Source: Alphaproteobacteria bacterium (GTDB taxonomy: Bacteria; Pseudomonadota; Alphaproteobacteria; UBA828). From it: a stretch of 64,000 nt of DNA. Positions 9,175-15,071 of the stretch are shown piece after piece. The notes beneath the pieces are model-generated. The model saw only the letters and a program-made list of their open reading frames with translations. It had not been told where the DNA came from and searched no databases. Position 1 is the stretch's first letter. Every line of letters begins with the position of its first letter. The position numbers were made by a program, and so were the translations under genes. The stretch spans positions 192,001-256,000 of the forward strand of contig CAXXVO010000017.1 of assembly GCA_963422645.2 (NCBI GenBank), given 5' to 3'.

Positions 9175-9185
9175 TGTTGTTAAGC
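9175..9185. repeat. Left half of an IS21 terminal IR split by IS110 (continues at 10894-10913)
   Basis: TGTTGTTAAGC joined to GTGGAAGATTGACCCC matches the IS21 copy-1 IR TGTTGTTAAGCGTGGAAAAGTGACCCC at 25 of 27 positions. Confidence 0.8.
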
Positions 9186-9289
9186 TTCCACCGGCGCGGC
9201 GCTCCGGCTCGGTCGCGGGAGTAACGGGGGCTTGTGTCTGCGACGCCTCGGTCGTGAACTGGCGGCGGGTGGGGTGAAGAGGCCGTTCG

Positions 9290-9425
9290 TGCACTGGCGT
9301 GCTGTAGCGGCACCCGCTGTTAAGCTTGGCCCGAACCATTTTGTCGGCTCCGGTCACTGATGGCGCGGGTTTCCCGCGACCTCGTTCAAGAGAATGGGAC
9401 TTCGACCATGGTTCCTCCCCGCTCG
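9290..9425 (+). ncRNA. Putative bridge RNA of the IS110 element (boundaries approximate)
   Basis: TGTTAAG at 9318-9324 equals the target left arm plus core; TCAAGAG at 9386-9392 equals the donor left arm plus core; each is followed by a TGG...CCA hairpin. Confidence 0.6.
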
Positions 9426-9455
9426 CGACGGAGATGAAAGGCGGGAGGATGTTCC

Positions 9456-10874
9456 ATGGCGCGCAAGTCTCGAAGAACCCGTCGCCTCAGGGTGGTGAAC
9501 CCTGACTGCGCAGGGATCGACATCGGCAAGGACCGGCACTTCGTGGCGGTCGAGGCGGAACGCAGCGATGAGCCGGTGCGTTCGTTCGGCTCCTTTACCC
9601 GCGATCTGGCGGCGATGGCGGCGTGGCTGGCGTCGTGCGGGGTGACGAAGGTCGCAATGGAGTCGACCTCGGTCTACTGGATCCCGGTCTACGAGACGCT
9701 GGAGCGCGCGGGCTTCGAGGTGATGCTGGTGCCGCCGCGCATGACGAAGCAGATCGGCGGGCGCAAGAGCGACGTGCTGGACTGCCAGTGGATCTGGCAG
9801 CTGATGTCCTACGGTCTGCTGCGGGGAGCGTTCCGTCCGGGCGACGAGGTTTGCCCGCTGCGCTCCTACGCCCGCCAGATGAGGCGGCTGACCGAGGACC
9901 GCTCCCGCTGCGTCCTGCACATGCAAAAGGCGCTGACCGAGATGAACGTCAGGCTCGACTCGGTGATCGCCAACATCACGGGACTGACCGGCCAGCGCAT
10001 CCTGCGCGCGATCGTCGACGGCGAGCGTGACCCGGAGCGCCTGGCGACGCTCCGCCACCGGGGCATCAAGGCCGACGCCGATACGATCGCCGCGAGCCTT
10101 CAGGGGACGTGGCGCGAGGAGCATCTCTTCGCCCTCGAACAGGCCATGCAGCGCTACGACTTCCTGACCCGGCAGATCGACGACTGCGAGGCCCGGGTGA
10201 TGGCCGAGGTCGAGCGCCTGACACCGCCGGACGATCCCCCGGAGGGCGGTGCACCGGACCCTGCCCCCGGCACGACCTCGGACACCGCGTCGGGCCGCTC
10301 CGCGAACGCCGCAACCAACGACACCGGCAAGGAGGGCATCCAGCCCCTGGCGTTGCGCAAGATGATGGGCGTCGACCTCACCGCGATCCCCACCGTCGGT
10401 CCCGGTACCGCACTGGTGATCGCCTCGGAGATCGGCCCGGACTTCTCCGCCTTCCCCTCCGCTCAGCACTTCTGCTCCTGGCTTGCGCTCGCGCCGGGAA
10501 CCAGGATCAGCGGCGGCAAGAATCTCCCCGGCAAGTCGCCGAAGGCGGTCAACCCCGTCGGACAGGCCCTGCGCTTGGCGGCCATGGCCGCGCGCCGCAG
10601 CCAGACCTTCATCGGCGCCAAGCACCGCGCAAGGCTCGCCCGAATGGACACCCCCGTCGCGATCAAGGCGACCGCCCGCGAACTCGCCTGTCTGATCTAC
10701 CTCATGGTGACCGAGGGCCAGGAATACGTCGAGCAGGGCATCGGCGCCTACGAGAAGCGGCGCCTCAACAGAAAGTTCGCTCATCTCGACCGCCAAGCCC
10801 AAAAGCTCGGGTTCCAACTCATCCCGAAAACGCAAGGAGAGGAAAAACAGAACCCAATGCCGTCAATCGCTTAG
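9456..10874 (+). CDS. IS110-family DEDD recombinase/transposase
   Basis: GIDIGKD, MESTSVYW, KSDVLD (DEDD); Tnp domain LAPGTRISGG; GGGAGG RBS. Confidence 0.95.
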   Translation: MARKSRRTRRLRVVNPDCAGIDIGKDRHFVAVEAERSDEPVRSFGSFTRDLAAMAAWLASCGVTKVAMESTSVYWIPVYETLERAGFEVMLVPPRMTKQIGGRKSDVLDCQWIWQLMSYGLLRGAFRPGDEVCPLRSYARQMRRLTEDRSRCVLHMQKALTEMNVRLDSVIANITGLTGQRILRAIVDGERDPERLATLRHRGIKADADTIAASLQGTWREEHLFALEQAMQRYDFLTRQIDDCEARVMAEVERLTPPDDPPEGGAPDPAPGTTSDTASGRSANAATNDTGKEGIQPLALRKMMGVDLTAIPTVGPGTALVIASEIGPDFSAFPSAQHFCSWLALAPGTRISGGKNLPGKSPKAVNPVGQALRLAAMAARRSQTFIGAKHRARLARMDTPVAIKATARELACLIYLMVTEGQEYVEQGIGAYEKRRLNRKFAHLDRQAQKLGFQLIPKTQGEEKQNPMPSIA

Positions 10875-11068
10875 GCATCTGTTACTCAAGAGCGTGGAAG
10901 ATTGACCCCTGATTGGAGATGCCGTAATGGGGCTTGGCGCCGGCGTGCAGCGTCTCGGCCTGTCGCGATGACGGCGAATCGGTTGTCGTTGCCCTTACAC
11001 GCGTAGCGTGTTCACGGGGTCTTGCCGCAAGGCGCGCCCCAATTCCTCTGGAGGAAAGGGCAACGACA

Positions 11069-12109
11069 ATGGACGTCTGTATCGGGCTGGATGTATCGCT
11101 GGCAAGCACGGCGGTTTGCGTTCTCGACGAGAAGGGCAAGATCGCGACCGAGGCGCAGGTCGCCAGCACGCCTGAAGCGCTGGTTGGGTTCCTGCACAAG
11201 CTGCCGCACGAGATCACCGCGATCGGTCTCGAGGCCGGTCCCTTGTCCCACTGGTTGCACAAGGGAATGACCGACGCCGGCTTCGAGGCCGTGTTGATGG
11301 AGACCCGGCAGGTAAAGGGTGCGCTGAAGGCCATGCCGATCAAGACCGATCGCCGGGACGCCGAGGGCATCGCACGGCTGTTGCTGATGGGGTGGTTTCG
11401 GCCGGTGCACTGCAAGTCGGTGTCATCGCAAGAGATGCGAGCCCTCCTGACCTCGCGCAAGTCCGTGCTGGACGCGATCATCCGCCTGGAGGTCTCGCTG
11501 CGCGGCGTCCTGCGTAACTTTGGCCTGAAGCTGGGCCTGATCTCGAAGGGCCGCTATGAGGCCCGAGTGCGGGAGTTGGTCGCCGGCAACGCGATGCTGG
11601 AAGCGGCAGCCGAACCGATCCTGGGCGCGCGGGCGGCCCTGCGCCGCGAGTTCGCCGAGCTGGAGAAGCTGGTCCGCACTCTGGCAAGGCAAGACAGGGC
11701 ATGCCGCCTGTTGATGACCATGCCGGGCGTGGGGCATGTCATAGCCCTGACCTTCAAGTCCGCGATCGACGACCCGGAGCGGTTCCGAAGATCGAAGGAT
11801 GTCGGCCCCTGGGTAGGGCTGACGCCGGCGCGGGAGCAGTCCGGGGAGAGGGATATTGTCGGCCGGATCACCAAGGCCGGCGATGCCGGTCTGCGCGCGG
11901 CTCTTTACCAAGCCGCAACGGTGATGCTGAACCGCACAGGGCCGAACTGGCTGAAGGCTTGGGCGCTACGTTTGGCGAAGCACAGGGGCAAGAAGCGCGC
12001 GACCGTTGCCTTGGCCCGGCGCATCGGTGTTGTGCTTCACCGAATGTGGCGGGATGGAACCGAGTTCCGCTTTACGCGCGAGGAAGCGATGGCGCTTCGG
12101 ACGGCATAG
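11069..12109 (+). CDS. IS110/IS1111-family recombinase
   Basis: IGLDVSL, LEAGPLS, KTDRRDA, GLTPAREQSGE; ATG at 11069. Confidence 0.95.
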   Translation: MDVCIGLDVSLASTAVCVLDEKGKIATEAQVASTPEALVGFLHKLPHEITAIGLEAGPLSHWLHKGMTDAGFEAVLMETRQVKGALKAMPIKTDRRDAEGIARLLLMGWFRPVHCKSVSSQEMRALLTSRKSVLDAIIRLEVSLRGVLRNFGLKLGLISKGRYEARVRELVAGNAMLEAAAEPILGARAALRREFAELEKLVRTLARQDRACRLLMTMPGVGHVIALTFKSAIDDPERFRRSKDVGPWVGLTPAREQSGERDIVGRITKAGDAGLRAALYQAATVMLNRTGPNWLKAWALRLAKHRGKKRATVALARRIGVVLHRMWRDGTEFRFTREEAMALRTA

Positions 12110-12184
12110 GCGCGGCTGCATCCCATCGGCAGTCAGCGAGGAGAGGAGGAAAGAGCCGCGCCTGAAGGTGGGCGAGCCACCAAC

Positions 12185-12400
12185 GTCCCCTCGCCGGGAC
12201 GCGGTCCCCGATGATGCACGTGGGCCCACTTGTTTGCCGAACCGGCCTGTCGTGTTCGAGCACGCTGTGGAGATAGGCACTCGGGAACCGATTTGGACTG
12301 GGCATGATGTTGGCAGCCGATGCGCTGACCACGGACAGAAGCGAGAACCCGGCGAAGGACACAAGACGTTGAGCAAGCGCGAGATCGATACGGTCGGCCC
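12185..12400 (+). ncRNA. Putative seekRNA/bridge RNA of the IS1111 element (boundaries approximate)
   Basis: Four guide matches in order: GGGCCCACT 12222-12230, TGGAG 12268-12272, GGCAT 12301-12305, ACAGAAG 12335-12341. Confidence 0.72.
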
Positions 12401-12552
12401 CATTGCACCTGACACCGGCAACCTCCTCCGCGCCTCACCCGGCGCCTCATAGCCAGGCCGAAGGAGCCCCTACACCACGCCAGGAAAACAACTGATTGGC
12501 GCGACAATGATCTATTGAAAATCGAGCTTGACGGGAAACGCCCCATTACAGA

Positions 12553-12632
12553 AGTGGGCCCCTGGGGCCGGACAGTTTCAGGCGGCCGATTTGACCGGCT
12601 TGCGGGACTGCTCCTCCTCGAAACGGTCGGGG
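12553..12632 (-). mobile_element. IS3-family right-end remnant (IR begins at 10914 and is split by IS1111)
   Basis: Minus strand encodes PDRFEEEQSRKPVKSAA* (OrfB-like C-terminus) followed by CTGTCCGGCCCCAGGGGCCCACT; rejoined end reads TGGAGTGGGCCCCTGGGGCCGGACAG. Confidence 0.7.
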
Positions 12633-12939
12633 TGTCAACGCCGGATGAAGATTCGGCCAGAGGGCGGCGCAAAAGACTGCCACTCTGGGTGATGCGTCGT
12701 TGTGACGGTTTTTCGGCGGGCGCGGTCCGTGGAGCCATCCAGAGCTCAAGCGGTCCGCGCGCGCCGGCCGACCGGAGGGCGGCCTACTGGTTTCGGTTTG
12801 TCGAGGTTCAACTTTGCGCCGTCAACGGACACGCCTGATGGCGGGATGACGGTGAGTGCCCGAGCACCGTCACGGCAGGTGGCGGGGGCTGGGGCTGGGC
12901 GCCTTGGCCGATCGGTGTCGGTCGTCGGCGTGCCGGGGT

Positions 12940-13704
12940 TCAGCTTGCGGTCTTGTTCCTGCGTGCACGGCTCTGGCTGAGGCGGTAGCTGTCGCCGTTC
13001 ATCTCGAGGATGTTGACGTGGTGGGTGAGACGATCGAGGAGCGCCCCGGTGAGGCGCTCGGAGCCAAAGGTCTCGGTCCATTCGTCGAAGGGGAGGTTGG
13101 AGGTGATCAGGGTGGCGCCCCGTTCGTAGCGCTGGGAGACCAGCTCGAACAGCAACTCGGCGCCGGTCTTGCTCAGCGGCACGAAGCCGACCTCGTCGAT
13201 GATCAGCAGCTTGAGACTTGCCAGCTGCTTCTGCAGCCGCAGCAGTCGTCATTCGTCACGCGCCTCCATGAGCTCATGCACCAGCGCCGCTGCGGTGATG
13301 AAGCGCACGCTCAGCCCCTTCTGGCAGGCGGCCAGTCCGAGCCCCAGGGCGACATGGCTCTTGCCGGTGCCCGATGGGCCGAGGGCGATGACGTTCTCGC
13401 GCCGCTCGATCCATTCGCAGCGCGCCAACTCCAGCACCCGCGGCTTGTTCAGCGCGGGCATGGCCTTGAAGTCGAAGCTGTCGAGGCTCTTGGCGAGCGG
13501 GAACTTCGCCGCCTTGATGCGCCGCTCGACCATGCGCCGTTCGCGCTCGATCAACTCCAGCTCCGCCAGCCGGGCCAGGAACTGGATATGATCCAGGCCC
13601 TCGGCCGCGCACTGGTGCGCCACTTTCTCGTATTGGCGCAGGAAGGTCGGCAGCTTCAGGGCCTTGAGGCGGTGCGCCAGCAGGATGTGGGGCGTGTCCG
13701 TCAT
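12940..13704 (-). pseudogene. istB: istB with an internal TGA at 13249-13251
   Basis: GPSGTGKSH...LMEARDE*RLLRLQKQLASLKLLIIDEVGF; the frame continues after the stop. Confidence 0.9.
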
Positions 13705-15071
13705 GCCGCGTCCTCCGACAGCAGGCACATGTAGCTGGCCGCCGAGGTCCTGCCGACGGTAGCCTTCGGCAGATAGGGGTAGACATCGAGGTCGAGCTTC
13801 GGCGGGCGCTTCTCGAGGCGGCACAGCACCAGGTGCTTGACCGCGTCGAAGCCTATGGCGCCCAGGCGCAGGGCATCCTTCACTGCGGCGTGGAGATCCT
13901 CCAGCCCGAAGCTCTCCAGCAGCCGCAGGACCTGCACGTACTCCCGCCGCCCCGCCTTGAGCGCGCGTGCCTCCATCAGGCGGCGCAGGGTCTGGAAGGC
14001 GGGCGGCAGGTCCCATCCGGCGAGCGGCGCTGCCTGGTCCAGGGCGCCGATCTTCTGCTCGATCAGGGGCAGATAGTGGATCGGCTCGAAGATCATGTCC
14101 TCACGCTCATAGGACCGGGGATGGCGGGCGATGACGTCTCCGCCACAGCCGATCACCACTCGATCGACGTAACCGCGTACCCAGACGTCACGATGGCCAT
14201 AGGCCACCGGCACCGAGTAGTCGTTGGTCCGATAGCGAACCAGAGACTGCGAGCTGACCTGGCCGGGAGCCTGGTCACAGGCCTCGAAGGGCGTAGCCGG
14301 CGGCGCGGCCATGGCCGCCACATCCCGCGCCAGGCGCTCTCCGATGGTCTCGCGGTGTCCGCGCAGGATATCGCCCTGGCGGCTGTGGCATTGCTCCTCG
14401 AGCCGCAGGTTGAACTCTTCCCAGCTCGCAAACCGTGGCAGCGGCACCATGAAGTTGCGCCGGGCCAGGATGCGCGACACCAGGCAGCGGTCGTTGTCGT
14501 AGAGAACCGATCGGGGAACCCCGCCGAAGAAGGCGAAGGCATGCACATGCCCGTCCATCCACGCCTCGGCCGTCGCCGCAGGGTAGGCCCGCACGTAGCA
14601 GGCGTCGCTGTGCGGAAGATCGAACACGAAGAAGTGCGCCTTGCGCGCGATACCCCCGATCACCGCCCGCGCCTCGCCGAAGTCCGCCTGCCCATGCCCC
14701 GGCGGATGGATCAGCGGCACGAACATCTCTCGCCGCCGGCGCCGATGCTCGCGCACATGATCCTTCACAATCGTGTAGCCGCCGCTGAACCCGTGCTCGG
14801 CCCGAAGACGGTCGAAAATGCGCTTCGCCGTGTGCCGCTGCTTGGGCAGCTGCTCCAGATCGTCCCGCAGCCACCCGTCGATGATCTCGATGAACCCGTC
14901 CAGCTTCGGACGCCGAAGCGGCGCCGTCCGCCGATAGCCCGGCGGCGCCGAAAACTGCAGCATCTTCTTCACGCTCTCGCGTGAAATCCCGAAGTGACGC
15001 GCCGCAGCCCGCTCACTCATCCCGTCCCGGCAGGCGAGACGGACCTTCCGATAAAGTTCCACGGTATGCAT
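13701..15071 (-). pseudogene. istA: istA with a probable in-frame internal deletion
   Basis: YDNDRCLVSRIL runs directly into ARRNFMVP, skipping the KGxVE segment that carries the catalytic Glu (junction near 14465). Confidence 0.75.

What the first reader, a model, noticed from the sequence alone, without database searches (positions are those of the whole stretch)
10914..12632. IS1111 element whose non-coding end shows all four RNA guide segments and targets an IS3 terminal repeat
Seen: removing 10917-12552 restores TGG-AG-TGGGCCCC, an IS3-like end. The predicted circle junction is TTACAGA-AG-ATGCC. The downstream non-coding region carries, in order, GGGCCCACT (12222-12230, reverse complement of target AGTGGGCCC), TGGAG (12268-12272, target left), GGCAT (12301-12305, reverse complement of donor ATGCC) and ACAGAAG (12335-12341, donor left plus core). 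Known: IS110/IS1111 recombinases are guided by bridge/seekRNAs encoded in their non-coding ends. Inference: this is an intact programmable recombinase with an AG core that parasitises IS3 ends. The left target match covers only the 5 nt belonging to the IS3 end, as expected if the flank outside the IS varies. A TTGACG at 12528-12533 could form a circle-junction promoter.
Basis: partly seen in the sequence, partly recalled or inferred. Interest (0 to 1): 0.88.

Follow-up and report, generated by a model that had tools for sequence, protein, structure and literature searches.

The report
RNA-guided IS1111 element inside IS3 end
This is an intact IS1111-type insertion sequence whose downstream non-coding region encodes a bridge/seek RNA with four guide stretches that match its own ends and the tip of an IS3-family inverted repeat, a well-supported but ordinary member of a mechanism described in 2024.

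Summary
Window 10917-12552 is a 1636-bp IS1111-group element (346-aa DEDD transposase, 10-bp subterminal inverted repeats, AG core). It lies between nt 5 and 6 of an IS3-family terminal repeat (TGG-AG|TGGGCCCC).

The own genome holds 6 copies at 100% identity. All 6 have TGG|AG on the left, and all 4 with an intact right end have AG|TGGGCCCC on the right.

The four segments lie in unpaired strands between stems that covary in 59-85 homologous RNAs. They read as RTG 12222-12230, LTG 12268-12272, RDG 12301-12305 and LDG 12335-12341.

Across about 60 relatives the guide positions track each element's own flanks and ends:
- RT1-7 match in 63-73% of own pairs against 23-32% of cross-pairs.
- LT-1 to LT-5 match in 46-100% against about 25%.
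- The LDG equals the right end plus core in 68 of 72 elements.

An 85%-identical sister element in the same genome differs in exactly these segments, and its sites and right end differ to match.

Transcription, RNA binding and current activity are not shown. The kind is already known (bridge RNA, seekRNA; predicted for 93% of IS1111s). This is a new member with an IS3-end target.

The parts
10914..10916 (+). TGG, outermost 3 nt of the IS3-family terminal repeat; left target (LT)
   Evidence: 3-bp direct repeats place the IS3 tip here. Conserved in the left flank of all 6 copies. A contig of run X2 diverges before 10914.
10917..12552 (+). IS1111-group insertion sequence (IS-A), 1636 bp, counted with one copy of the AG core at its left
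   Evidence: Own genome holds 4 full copies and 2 right-end-truncated copies at 100% identity.
10917..10918 (+). AG core, left copy (right copy at 12553-12554)
   Evidence: AG flanks both junctions here, and in nearly all of the 75 related elements listed.
10919..10923 (+). ATGCC, right donor half-site (RD) next to the core in the circle junction
   Evidence: Complement of the RDG GGCAT. Covaries in relatives (ATACC with GTAT in 3 of 3).
10924..10933 (+). Left subterminal inverted repeat GTAATGGGGC (7-bp extension AGATGCC outside it)
   Evidence: The 7-bp left and 3-bp right extensions are as described for IS1111 in PMC11187229 (passage read).
11069..12109 (+). Transposase/recombinase gene, 346 aa
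   Evidence: Pfam DEDD_Tnp_IS110 (1.5e-16) and Transposase_20 (7.4e-24). C-terminal domain matches ISCro4 and IS621 transposases in the PDB. GLTPAREQSG motif visible in the translation.
12186..12362 (+). Predicted bridge/seek RNA scaffold (covariance-model hit 12187-12362)
   Evidence: Alignment A1, model R1, and hits.
12192..12198 (+). 5' strand of closing stem P0 (CGCCGGG), pairs with 12348-12354 (CCCGGCG)
   Evidence: Helix 1: 72.6-76.3% of cells paired, 7 pairs with changes on both sides.
12203..12211 (+). 5' strand of the outer stem of the target arm (GGTCCCCGA), pairs with 12281-12289; TGC.C 12215-12219 pairs with GGCA 12276-12279
   Evidence: Helices 2-4 and helices 2-3: 87.6-97.4% of cells paired, with compensatory changes.
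12222..12230 (+). Right target guide (RTG) GGGCCCACT, reverse complement of AG+TGGGCCC
   Evidence: RT1-7 match in 63-73% of own pairs against 23-32% of cross-pairs. Sister element IS-B has TTTGAACC here and sits at AG|GTTCAAA.
12232..12263 (+). Inner hairpin of the target arm (GT..GCCGAA / TTCG.GCAC)
   Evidence: 96.1-96.8% of cells paired, 6 of 8 pairs with changes on both sides.
12268..12274 (+). Left target guide (LTG) TGG+AG, followed by AT, which equals the first 2 nt of the element after the core
   Evidence: LT-1 to LT-5 match 100/88/75/46/69% against about 25%. IS-B has ATCAG here and sits at GATC|AG and GTTC|AG.
12301..12305 (+). Right donor guide (RDG) GGCAT, reverse complement of ATGCC
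   Evidence: 61 of 63 elements with left end ATGCCG carry GGCAT. 3 of 3 with ATACCG carry GTAT. 4 of 6 with ATGCTG carry CAGCAT.
12309..12332 (+). Inner hairpin of the donor arm (G.TGGCAGC / GCTG.CCAC)
   Evidence: 99.6-99.8% of cells paired, 2 pairs with changes on both sides (A-U to G-C in 14-17 rows).
12335..12341 (+). Left donor guide (LDG) ACAGA+AG, equal to the last 5 nt of the element plus core
   Evidence: identical to the element's own right end plus AG in 68 of 72 elements. Four right-end variants (ACAGA, ACGGA, ACCGA, ATGGA) each have the matching guide.
12528..12533 (+). TTGACG, candidate -35 box of a circle-junction promoter (the -10 would be GA|AGAT across the joint)
   Evidence: TTGA(C/A)N present in 44 of 45 distinct right-end tails, 40 of them exactly 19 nt from the last base. 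Function is inferred by analogy with ISEc11 (PMC11187229, figure legend read).
12540..12552 (+). Right subterminal inverted repeat GCCCCATTAC plus 3-bp extension AGA
12553..12632 (+). AG core plus remnant (80 bp) of the IS3-family terminal repeat; right target TGGGCCC at 12555-12561
   Evidence: 85% identical to nt 1-80 of the sequence between the two IS-A copies at the C8 IS3 locus. That 1254-bp stretch encodes HTH_Tnp_1 and HTH_21+rve proteins.

Best explanation
Window 10917-12552 is a complete IS1111-group (IS110-family) insertion sequence. Its 346-aa DEDD recombinase is most likely guided by an RNA transcribed from the 3' non-coding region (about 12186-12362).

The RNA folds as a three-way junction. 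A closing stem encloses two arms:
- A donor hairpin, whose flanking multiloop strands carry the RDG (GGCAT) and the LDG (ACAGA+AG). These read the two ends of the element once they are joined in a circle (TTACAGA-AG-ATGCC).

Recombination at the AG core places the element between nt 5 and 6 of an IS3-family terminal inverted repeat.

Shown here: anatomy, copies and sites, stem covariation, and guide/site and guide/end covariation.
Inferred: that the guide is RNA, that a circle forms and creates a TTGACG-17-GAAGAT promoter, and that the element is active now.
For: Protein: both IS110-family Pfam domains, C-terminal homology to the ISCro4 and IS621 bridge recombinases, and a GLTPAREQSG motif.

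Copies: 6 at 100% identity. All 6 have TGG|AG on the left. 4 of 4 with an intact right end have AG|TGGGCCCCTGGGG on the right. Two copies sit in both repeats of one 1.25-kb IS3 element.

Structure: the hand-built structure gives 88.5% paired cells on the MAFFT alignment of 59 RNAs, against 31-41% when partners are slid. 20 pairs change on both sides, and 0 of 500 shuffles reach the covariation score. On the model-fitted alignment of 85 RNAs the figures are 89.9% and 22 pairs. RNAalifold independently finds both inner hairpins.

Guides:
- The 85% sister element IS-B differs in RTG, LTG and one LDG base, and its flanks and right end differ to match.
- 59 distinct sites were scored out of 72 elements. 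An RTG match of 7 nt or more beyond the core occurs in 25 of 59 own pairs against 0.34% of 3268 cross-pairs. An LTG match of 5 nt or more occurs in 24 of 59 against 5.9% of 2987.
- Per position, RT1-7 and LT-1 to LT-5 are above background, and RT8-9 and LT-6 to LT-9 are at background.
- LDG equals the right end plus core in 68 of 72.
- Six copies in genome G037 all sit at about GACCA-AG-ACGCAGC, matching their guides.
- A 5'-truncated relative in another species (G034) has the same RTG next to an IS3-like end.

Model R1 finds exactly 9 hits in the own genome, the 6 IS-A and 3 IS-B copies.
Against: No direct evidence of an RNA:
- No Rfam family matched.
- No sigma-70-like promoter or intrinsic terminator was found in 10850-12650.
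- The single-sequence fold is no better than shuffles (z = 0.71 and -0.32).
- The two metatranscriptome runs hold only contigs of relatives and cannot show transcription, and the raw-read run laid no reads.

Misses in the guide/site test:
- 13 of 59 sites have a right-flank match of 3 nt or less, which is background. Examples are L012, L019 and L023. Some (L008, L030, L036) have the element's own sequence next to the right end.
- LDG mismatches its right end in 4 of 72 (L020, L043, L044, L065).
- In one relative (L015) the RTG register is shifted by one base.

Other points:
- This element's LTG matches only 3 nt beyond the core.
- One full 12-nt site, TGGAGTGGGCCC, in a gene on C6 is empty, as are 3 IS3 ends.
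- The relatives are kin, so counts overstate independence, and the structure was drawn from these same sequences.
Confidence: 0.88

Rival explanations
1. The element is a recently dead relic. The guide matches are real fossils of an RNA-guided system, but the copies no longer move, and some of the copy number comes from duplication of larger IS-rich segments.
For: 2 of 6 copies have a truncated right end. 3 IS3 ends and one perfect 12-nt site remain empty. No circle junction or empty-site polymorphism was seen (which was not a real test). The region is an IS graveyard.
Against: Four full copies are 100% identical with an intact 346-aa frame. Their outer and inner flanks differ. A run of another organism label (X2) holds the element with 0-1 differences.
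Confidence: 0.1
2. Site choice is made by the protein or by DNA-DNA pairing of the non-coding end, not by an RNA. The complementary segments act as single-stranded DNA or as a decoy copy of the target.
For: Sequence covariation alone cannot tell RNA from DNA pairing.
Against: The stems covary in the RNA-like way, with G-U intermediates frequent. The recombinase is homologous to IS621 and ISCro4, whose complexes are in the PDB. For IS1111 members ISEc11, ISPa11 and ISKpn4 an RNA derived from the non-coding region co-purifies with the transposase and is required (PMC11187229: abstract and sections 6, 9, 13 read).
Confidence: 0.02
3. The four matches are coincidences in a GC-rich non-coding region, and the common flanks only reflect co-amplification of one IS3+IS junction.
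For: The two 5-mers occur in 39-48% of shuffles.
Against: All four in order occurred in 0 of 20000 shuffles. There is position-specific covariation in about 60 relatives at unrelated sites. Both the left and right repeats of IS3, and several IS3 variants, are hit.
Confidence: 0.01

Closest known systems
IS1111-family seekRNA elements ISEc11, ISPa11, ISKpn4, ISPst6 (Siddiquee et al. 2024, PMC11187229)
   Same: DEDD transposase of 330-350 aa. Subterminal inverted repeats with 7-bp left and 3-bp right extensions. Long non-coding region downstream of tnp. The segment complementary to the top strand lies 5' of the one complementary to the bottom strand. A promoter is formed across the circle junction.
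   Different: Different target (the tip of an IS3-family repeat). Here the donor-reading segments are also identified and shown to covary with the element's ends. No experiment was done here.
IS621 bridge RNA (Durrant et al. 2024, PMC11208160; Hiraizumi et al. 2024, PMC11208158)
   Same: Four guides (LTG, RTG, LDG, RDG) around a 2-nt core, one strand of each half-site read by each guide. Homologous recombinase.
   Different: The RNA is in the right end, not the left. The order within each loop is reversed (RTG then LTG). The core is AG, not CT. The donor guides lie in a multiloop closed by a long-range stem, as Durrant et al. note for many IS1111 orthologues (passage read). The RDG does not pair with the core here (GA where CT would be needed).
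IS4321/IS5075 (Partridge and Hall 2003; seen only as a title in reference lists)
   Same: IS1111-family elements that insert at one fixed position in the terminal inverted repeats of another transposable element.
   Different: Their target is the 38-bp repeat of Tn21-family transposons (length recalled, not from a call). Here it is nt 5/6 of an IS3-family IS.
ISEc21 (IS110 family; PMC11187229, section 12 passage read)
   Same: An RNA-guided IS110-family element whose natural target lies inside IS3-family elements.
   Different: [quoted passage not shown] This element targets the IS3 terminal repeat and has a downstream one.

Membership tests
IS1111 group of the IS110 family | DEDD (RuvC-like) N-terminal domain plus the PF02371 C-terminal domain | tested here: met
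   PF01548 at 1.5e-16 and PF02371 at 7.4e-24.
IS1111 group of the IS110 family | Transposase of 330-350 aa with a GL-P----S(t)G motif | tested here: met
   346 aa. GLTPAREQSG is in the translation. The criterion comes from PMC11187229 section 6.
IS1111 group of the IS110 family | Subterminal inverted repeats with asymmetric extensions (7 bp left, 3 bp right) | tested here: met
   GTAATGGGGC at 10924-10933 and GCCCCATTAC at 12540-12549, with extensions AGATGCC and AGA. The repeat is 10 bp. The paper says usually 11-13 bp, and Durrant et al. say 7-17 bp.
IS1111 group of the IS110 family | The longer non-coding region lies downstream of tnp | tested here: met
   152 nt upstream (10917-11068) against 443 nt downstream (12110-12552).
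IS1111 group of the IS110 family | Sequence-specific target with no duplication beyond the shared core | tested here: met
   All 6 copies are at TGG|AG. Empty sites read TGG-AG-TGGGCCCC with a single AG.
Bridge RNA / seekRNA | Structured non-coding RNA with unpaired strands complementary to both strands of the target around the core | tested here: met
   RTG and LTG lie in an internal loop between covarying stems. They match the site 9 nt and 5 nt.
Bridge RNA / seekRNA | Second pair of strands complementary to the donor (joined element ends) | tested here: met
   RDG GGCAT and LDG ACAGAAG. LDG tracks the right end in 68 of 72 elements and RDG tracks left-end variants.
Bridge RNA / seekRNA | Guides covary with insertion sites across relatives | tested here: met
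   Misses: 13 of 59 right flanks are at background.
Bridge RNA / seekRNA | The RNA is transcribed, binds the recombinase and is required | not testable with these tools
   One search gave only metatranscriptome contigs of relatives. Searches found no Rfam family, promoter or terminator.
Bridge RNA / seekRNA | Changing the guides redirects insertion | not testable with these tools
   Only the natural comparison of IS-A with IS-B bears on it.
IS3 family (the target element) | Two frames (HTH orfA; HTH_21+rve orfB), TG-initiated terminal repeats, 3-bp direct repeats | tested here: met
   Pfam HTH_Tnp_1, HTH_21, rve and rve_3. Ends read TGGAGTGGGCCCC. Direct repeats are GAT and TAT. That these features define IS3 is recalled knowledge.

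The most novel reading that the evidence does not exclude
The guides have been selected to read only what belongs to the IS3 tip (3 nt + core + 7 nt). If so, the element is a dedicated hyperparasite of one IS3 lineage. It uses IS3 ends as safe harbours that multiply by themselves, and it splits off the terminal 5 nt that the IS3 transposase needs, which immobilises its host IS (both ends are hit at the C8 locus). The same window also holds a second IS110-family element inside the tip of another high-copy IS. Together these suggest that RNA-guided IS-on-IS targeting is a recurrent strategy in this genome, with guide swaps between sister elements (IS-A and IS-B) as the way new hosts are acquired.
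Probability: 0.25. Interest if true: 0.55.

Novelty: new member of a known kind. Interest (0 to 1): 0.35.

Why it matters
This locus gives a clean natural example of the bridge/seek RNA code in the less studied IS1111 branch.
- It has an explicit four-guide map and a 3-way-junction fold supported by covariation.
- The measured guide span for the clade is 5 nt + AG + 7 nt.
- Sister elements in one genome have naturally swapped guides.
- About 36 distinct natural RTG/LTG pairs with their sites were collected.

This could help in choosing and engineering IS1111-type recombinases. Biologically it adds IS3-family terminal repeats to the list of mobile-element ends that IS1111 elements colonise. It does not change what is known about the mechanism.

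Tried and rejected
Steps that led nowhere:
- Single-sequence folding of 12110-12552 and 12160-12365 gave z-scores of 0.71 and -0.32. The comparative structure was used instead.
- Outside the two inner hairpins, RNAalifold's consensus proposed a local GGGAC/GTCCC hairpin with no change on both sides. I preferred the long-range P0/P1 pairing, which shows compensatory changes.
- The Rfam scan gave only a chance-level H19_2 hit.
- The promoter/terminator scan found nothing.
- The plasmid collection held only 70-73% relatives annotated 'IS110 family transposase'.
- I first thought the IS3 repeat began about 24 nt further out, because the left flanks are alike. I rejected this when direct repeats and the high-copy IS-X ends explained the likeness.
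- Reads: X21 laid 0 reads, so it is no test. X19 and X20 are contigs of relatives in RNA libraries and do not show transcription. One X2 contig skips 12222-12321, which I left uninterpreted.

Literature:
- Two searches found no report of an IS1111 element targeting IS3 terminal repeats in the held library.
- ISfinder and paper supplements could not be consulted and may hold such a case. The relevant supplements are Supplementary Table 5 of PMC11208160 and the target logos of PMC11187229.

Rows dropped:
- L001 (the same place as the window), L005, L006, L009, L010 and L011 were dropped.
- 11 loci without two recognisable ends never entered the set.
- L013, L080 and L089 (right end misassigned) were dropped before A1.
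- 3 of 75 elements were not mapped to an A1 row.
- 13 of 72 lacked 12-nt flanks or duplicated a site.
Full report
WHAT IS THERE

Window 10917-12552 (+) is a 1636-bp element.
- It carries one 346-aa gene (11069-12109) with both IS110-family Pfam domains: DEDD_Tnp_IS110 at 1.5e-16 and Transposase_20 at 7.4e-24.
- The C-terminal domain matches the solved ISCro4 and IS621 transposases (E = 4.8e-13 and 5.4e-12).
- It has 10-bp subterminal inverted repeats: GTAATGGGGC at 10924-10933 and GCCCCATTAC at 12540-12549.
- Outside these lie a 7-bp left extension (AGATGCC) and a 3-bp right extension (AGA). This is the geometry given for IS1111-family elements in PMC11187229 (passage read).
- The non-coding stretch is 152 nt upstream and 443 nt downstream of the gene, again the IS1111 pattern (PMC11187229 section 6; PMC11208160 passages).

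COPIES AND TARGET

The window's own genome (23 contigs, 5.9 Mb) holds 11 matches:
- four full copies at 100% identity;
- two at 100% that lack the last 4-10 nt;
- three copies of a sister element (IS-B) that is 85% identical over nt 1-1447;
- two fragments.

All six 100% copies have TGG|AG on the left. The four with an intact right end have AG|TGGGCCCCTGGGG on the right.

Two copies face each other 1254 bp apart on contig C8. The DNA between them encodes an HTH_Tnp_1 protein and an HTH_21+rve+rve_3 protein, the usual IS3-family pair.

Other copies of this IS3 element have empty ends that read TGG-AG-TGGGCCCC: both ends of a 94% copy on C5 and one end of a 99% copy on C7.

The IS3 tip really is TGG. 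The C5 copy is flanked by the 3-bp direct repeat GAT and the C8 copy by TAT. A contig of run X2 matches the window only from 10914 onward.

In the window itself only 80 bp of the IS3 repeat remain (12553-12632). Beyond about 12633 an IS21-type element begins (IstB and IstA frames).

THE FOUR SEGMENTS

All four sit at the stated coordinates. The tests were these.

Chance. In 20000 dinucleotide-preserving shuffles of the 443-nt region:

| Segment | Share of shuffles containing it |
|---|---|
| 9-mer GGGCCCACT | 0.29% |
| 7-mer ACAGAAG | 3.9% |
| 5-mer TGGAG | 48% |
| 5-mer GGCAT | 39% |
| all four in order | 0 of 20000 |

Sister element. IS-B aligns with IS-A throughout the RNA region but differs at the segments.

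| Feature | IS-A | IS-B |
|---|---|---|
| RTG | GGGCCCACT | TTTGAACCC |
| LTG | TGGAG | ATCAG |
| LDG | ACAGAAG | ACGGAAG |
| RDG | GGCAT | GGCAT (unchanged) |
| Left flank | TGG\|AG | GATC\|AG and GTTC\|AG |
| Right flank | AG\|TGGGCCC | AG\|GTTCAAA and AG\|GTTCCTC |
| Right end | ATTACAGA | ATTACGGA |
| Left end | ATGCC | ATGCC |

Every difference or identity in a guide is mirrored in the DNA it should read.

RELATIVES

A scan of one genome per species gave 189 relatives, of which the best 80 loci were kept (65-87% protein identity).
- Ends could be set for 75 elements. Nearly all have AG|ATGC(C/T) or AG|ATACC on the left and (A/G/C)GA|AG on the right. The AG core is therefore family-wide in this clade.
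- 59 distinct RNA regions were aligned as A1.

FOLD

The fold I propose has four parts:
- a closing stem, 12192-12198 with 12348-54;
- a target arm with an outer stem (12203-11 with 12281-89, and 12215-19 with 12276-79);
- an inner hairpin in the target arm (12232-63);
- a donor hairpin (12309-32).

| Measure | A1, MAFFT, 59 RNAs | A2, model-fitted, 85 RNAs |
|---|---|---|
| Cells paired | 88.5% | 89.9% |
| Cells paired when partners are slid | 31-41% | 32-41% |
| Pairs changed on both sides | 20 of 41 | 22 of 41 |
| Shuffles reaching the covariation score | 0 of 500 | 0 of 500 |

The A2 alignment leans towards the structure, because it was fitted to the model. RNAalifold on its own recovers the two inner hairpins.

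The RTG and LTG are the two strands of the internal loop of the target arm. The RDG and LDG are the strands on either side of the donor hairpin, inside the multiloop. Durrant et al. remark that many IS1111 orthologues have their donor-binding nucleotides in a multiloop (PMC11208160, passage read).

Both 3' guides have their AG at the 8th-9th nt after their hairpin, so the two modules share one register.

GUIDE VERSUS SITE

59 distinct insertion sites with full flanks were scored, out of 72 elements.

| Guide and threshold | Own pairs | Cross-pairs |
|---|---|---|
| 5' loop strand vs right flank, 7 nt or more beyond the core | 25 of 59 | 0.34% of 3268 |
| same, 6 nt or more | 35 of 59 | 1.5% |
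| 3' loop strand vs left flank, 5 nt or more | 24 of 59 | 5.9% of 2987 |

Position by position:
- RT1-RT7 agree in 63-73% of own pairs against 23-32% of cross-pairs.
- RT8-9 fall to background.
- LT-1 to LT-5 agree in 100, 88, 75, 46 and 69% against about 25%.
- LT-6 and beyond are at or below background.

The clade therefore reads about 5 + AG + 7 bp.

Donor side:
- The LDG 7-mer equals the element's own last 5 nt plus AG in 68 of 72 elements, across four right-end variants.
- The RDG follows left-end variants: GGCAT with ATGCC in 61 of 63, GTAT with ATACC in 3 of 3, and CAGCAT with ATGCTG in 4 of 6.

Other genomes:
- Six copies in genome G037 sit at six different places that all read about GACCA-AG-ACGCAGC, as their guides predict.
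- A truncated IS-A relative in G034 has the same RTG beside an IS3-like end.

Model R1 finds nine hits in the own genome, the six IS-A and three IS-B copies, and no orphan RNA genes.

RESULTS AGAINST OR NEUTRAL

- 13 of 59 sites show no right-flank match above background. In some the right end abuts a duplicated piece of the element itself.
- Four elements have an LDG that mismatches their right end.
- One relative (L015) pairs one base out of register.
- The RDG does not pair with the core (GA where CT would be needed).
- In the own genome, 49 sites carry AGTGGGCCC. About 24 lie in another repeat with GAGA instead of TGG on the left, and none of those is occupied. This fits a need for the LTG but is not proof.
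- One perfect 12-nt site in a gene on C6 and three IS3 ends are empty.
- Nothing shows transcription. There is no Rfam family, no promoter or terminator consensus, and no usable RNA reads.
- The relatives are kin, and the structure was drawn from them.

PROMOTER IDEA

TTGA(C/A)N is present in 44 of 45 distinct right-end tails, 40 of them exactly 19 nt from the last base. A 17-nt spacer would put a -10 of GA|AGAT across the joint. A junction promoter is reported for ISEc11 (PMC11187229, figure legend read). Here it is inference.

VERDICT

The element is a member of the IS1111 group and carries what is, by all sequence tests available, a bridge/seek RNA. That such RNAs exist in the right ends of IS1111 elements is already published: 93.0% of ISfinder IS1111s were predicted to have one (PMC11208160), and four IS1111 members were tested in PMC11187229. 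So this is a new member of a known kind.

Noticed in passing
window 9175-10893: A second IS110-family element (472-aa transposase at 9456-10874, 281-nt upstream non-coding region). It starts after TGTTGTTAAGC and ends ...CAAGAGC, so it appears to sit about 11 nt inside the tip of a high-copy IS. There are three full copies at 99.5-100% identity (C18, C3, C5), one partial copy and one 78% relative. It may carry its own upstream bridge RNA aimed at that IS tip.
   Followed up: partly
window 10894-10913, and about 70 places in the genome (for example window about 22143, 51238 and 55686 on the - strand): A high-copy IS ('IS-X'). Its left end reads TGTTGTTAAGCGTGGAAAAGTGACCCCCTATTGGGGGTGATC..., and a related end reads ...CTGACCCCCGATCGGCGTGCAAAATTGACCCCCC. 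The fuzzy pattern found 146 hits. Every IS3 copy examined is inserted right after TGACCCC(C)NAT inside one of these ends, so the IS3 element also seems to prefer another IS's end. The window then reads IS-X tip / IS110-type element / IS-X end / IS3 tip / IS-A / IS3 remnant / IS21.
   Followed up: partly
L005 (G000:C3:192710-194341) and L006 (G000:C8:417731-419356): The two truncated IS-A copies both break inside the right subterminal repeat (after ...GAAACGCC). In L005 the IS3 element is gone, and the element is fused to the far flank of the IS3 insertion site. This may be microhomology deletion or aberrant recombination.
   Followed up: partly
L078, L085, L086, L048, L023, L014, L030, L036-L038: Several relatives carry tandem duplications of the right end (35-370 nt apart) or two copies of the whole RNA region. 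L008/L009 are two IS-B copies in tandem, the second lacking its first 57 nt.
   Followed up: no
about 24 places in G000, for example C18:62317 (outside the window): Another repeat family carries GCGAGA-AG-TGGGCCCGGCTG, a perfect 9-nt match to the RTG with a wrong left side. None is occupied by IS-A.
   Followed up: partly
window 12940-14016 (- strand): The IS21 IstB frame is split in two (12940-13182 and 13249-14016), so that element looks broken.
   Followed up: no
window 12222-12321, in run X2: One contig (depth 103 against about 957) joins 12222 to 12321, skipping 98 nt that span RTG to RDG. This could be a deletion variant or a relative's contig.
   Followed up: no
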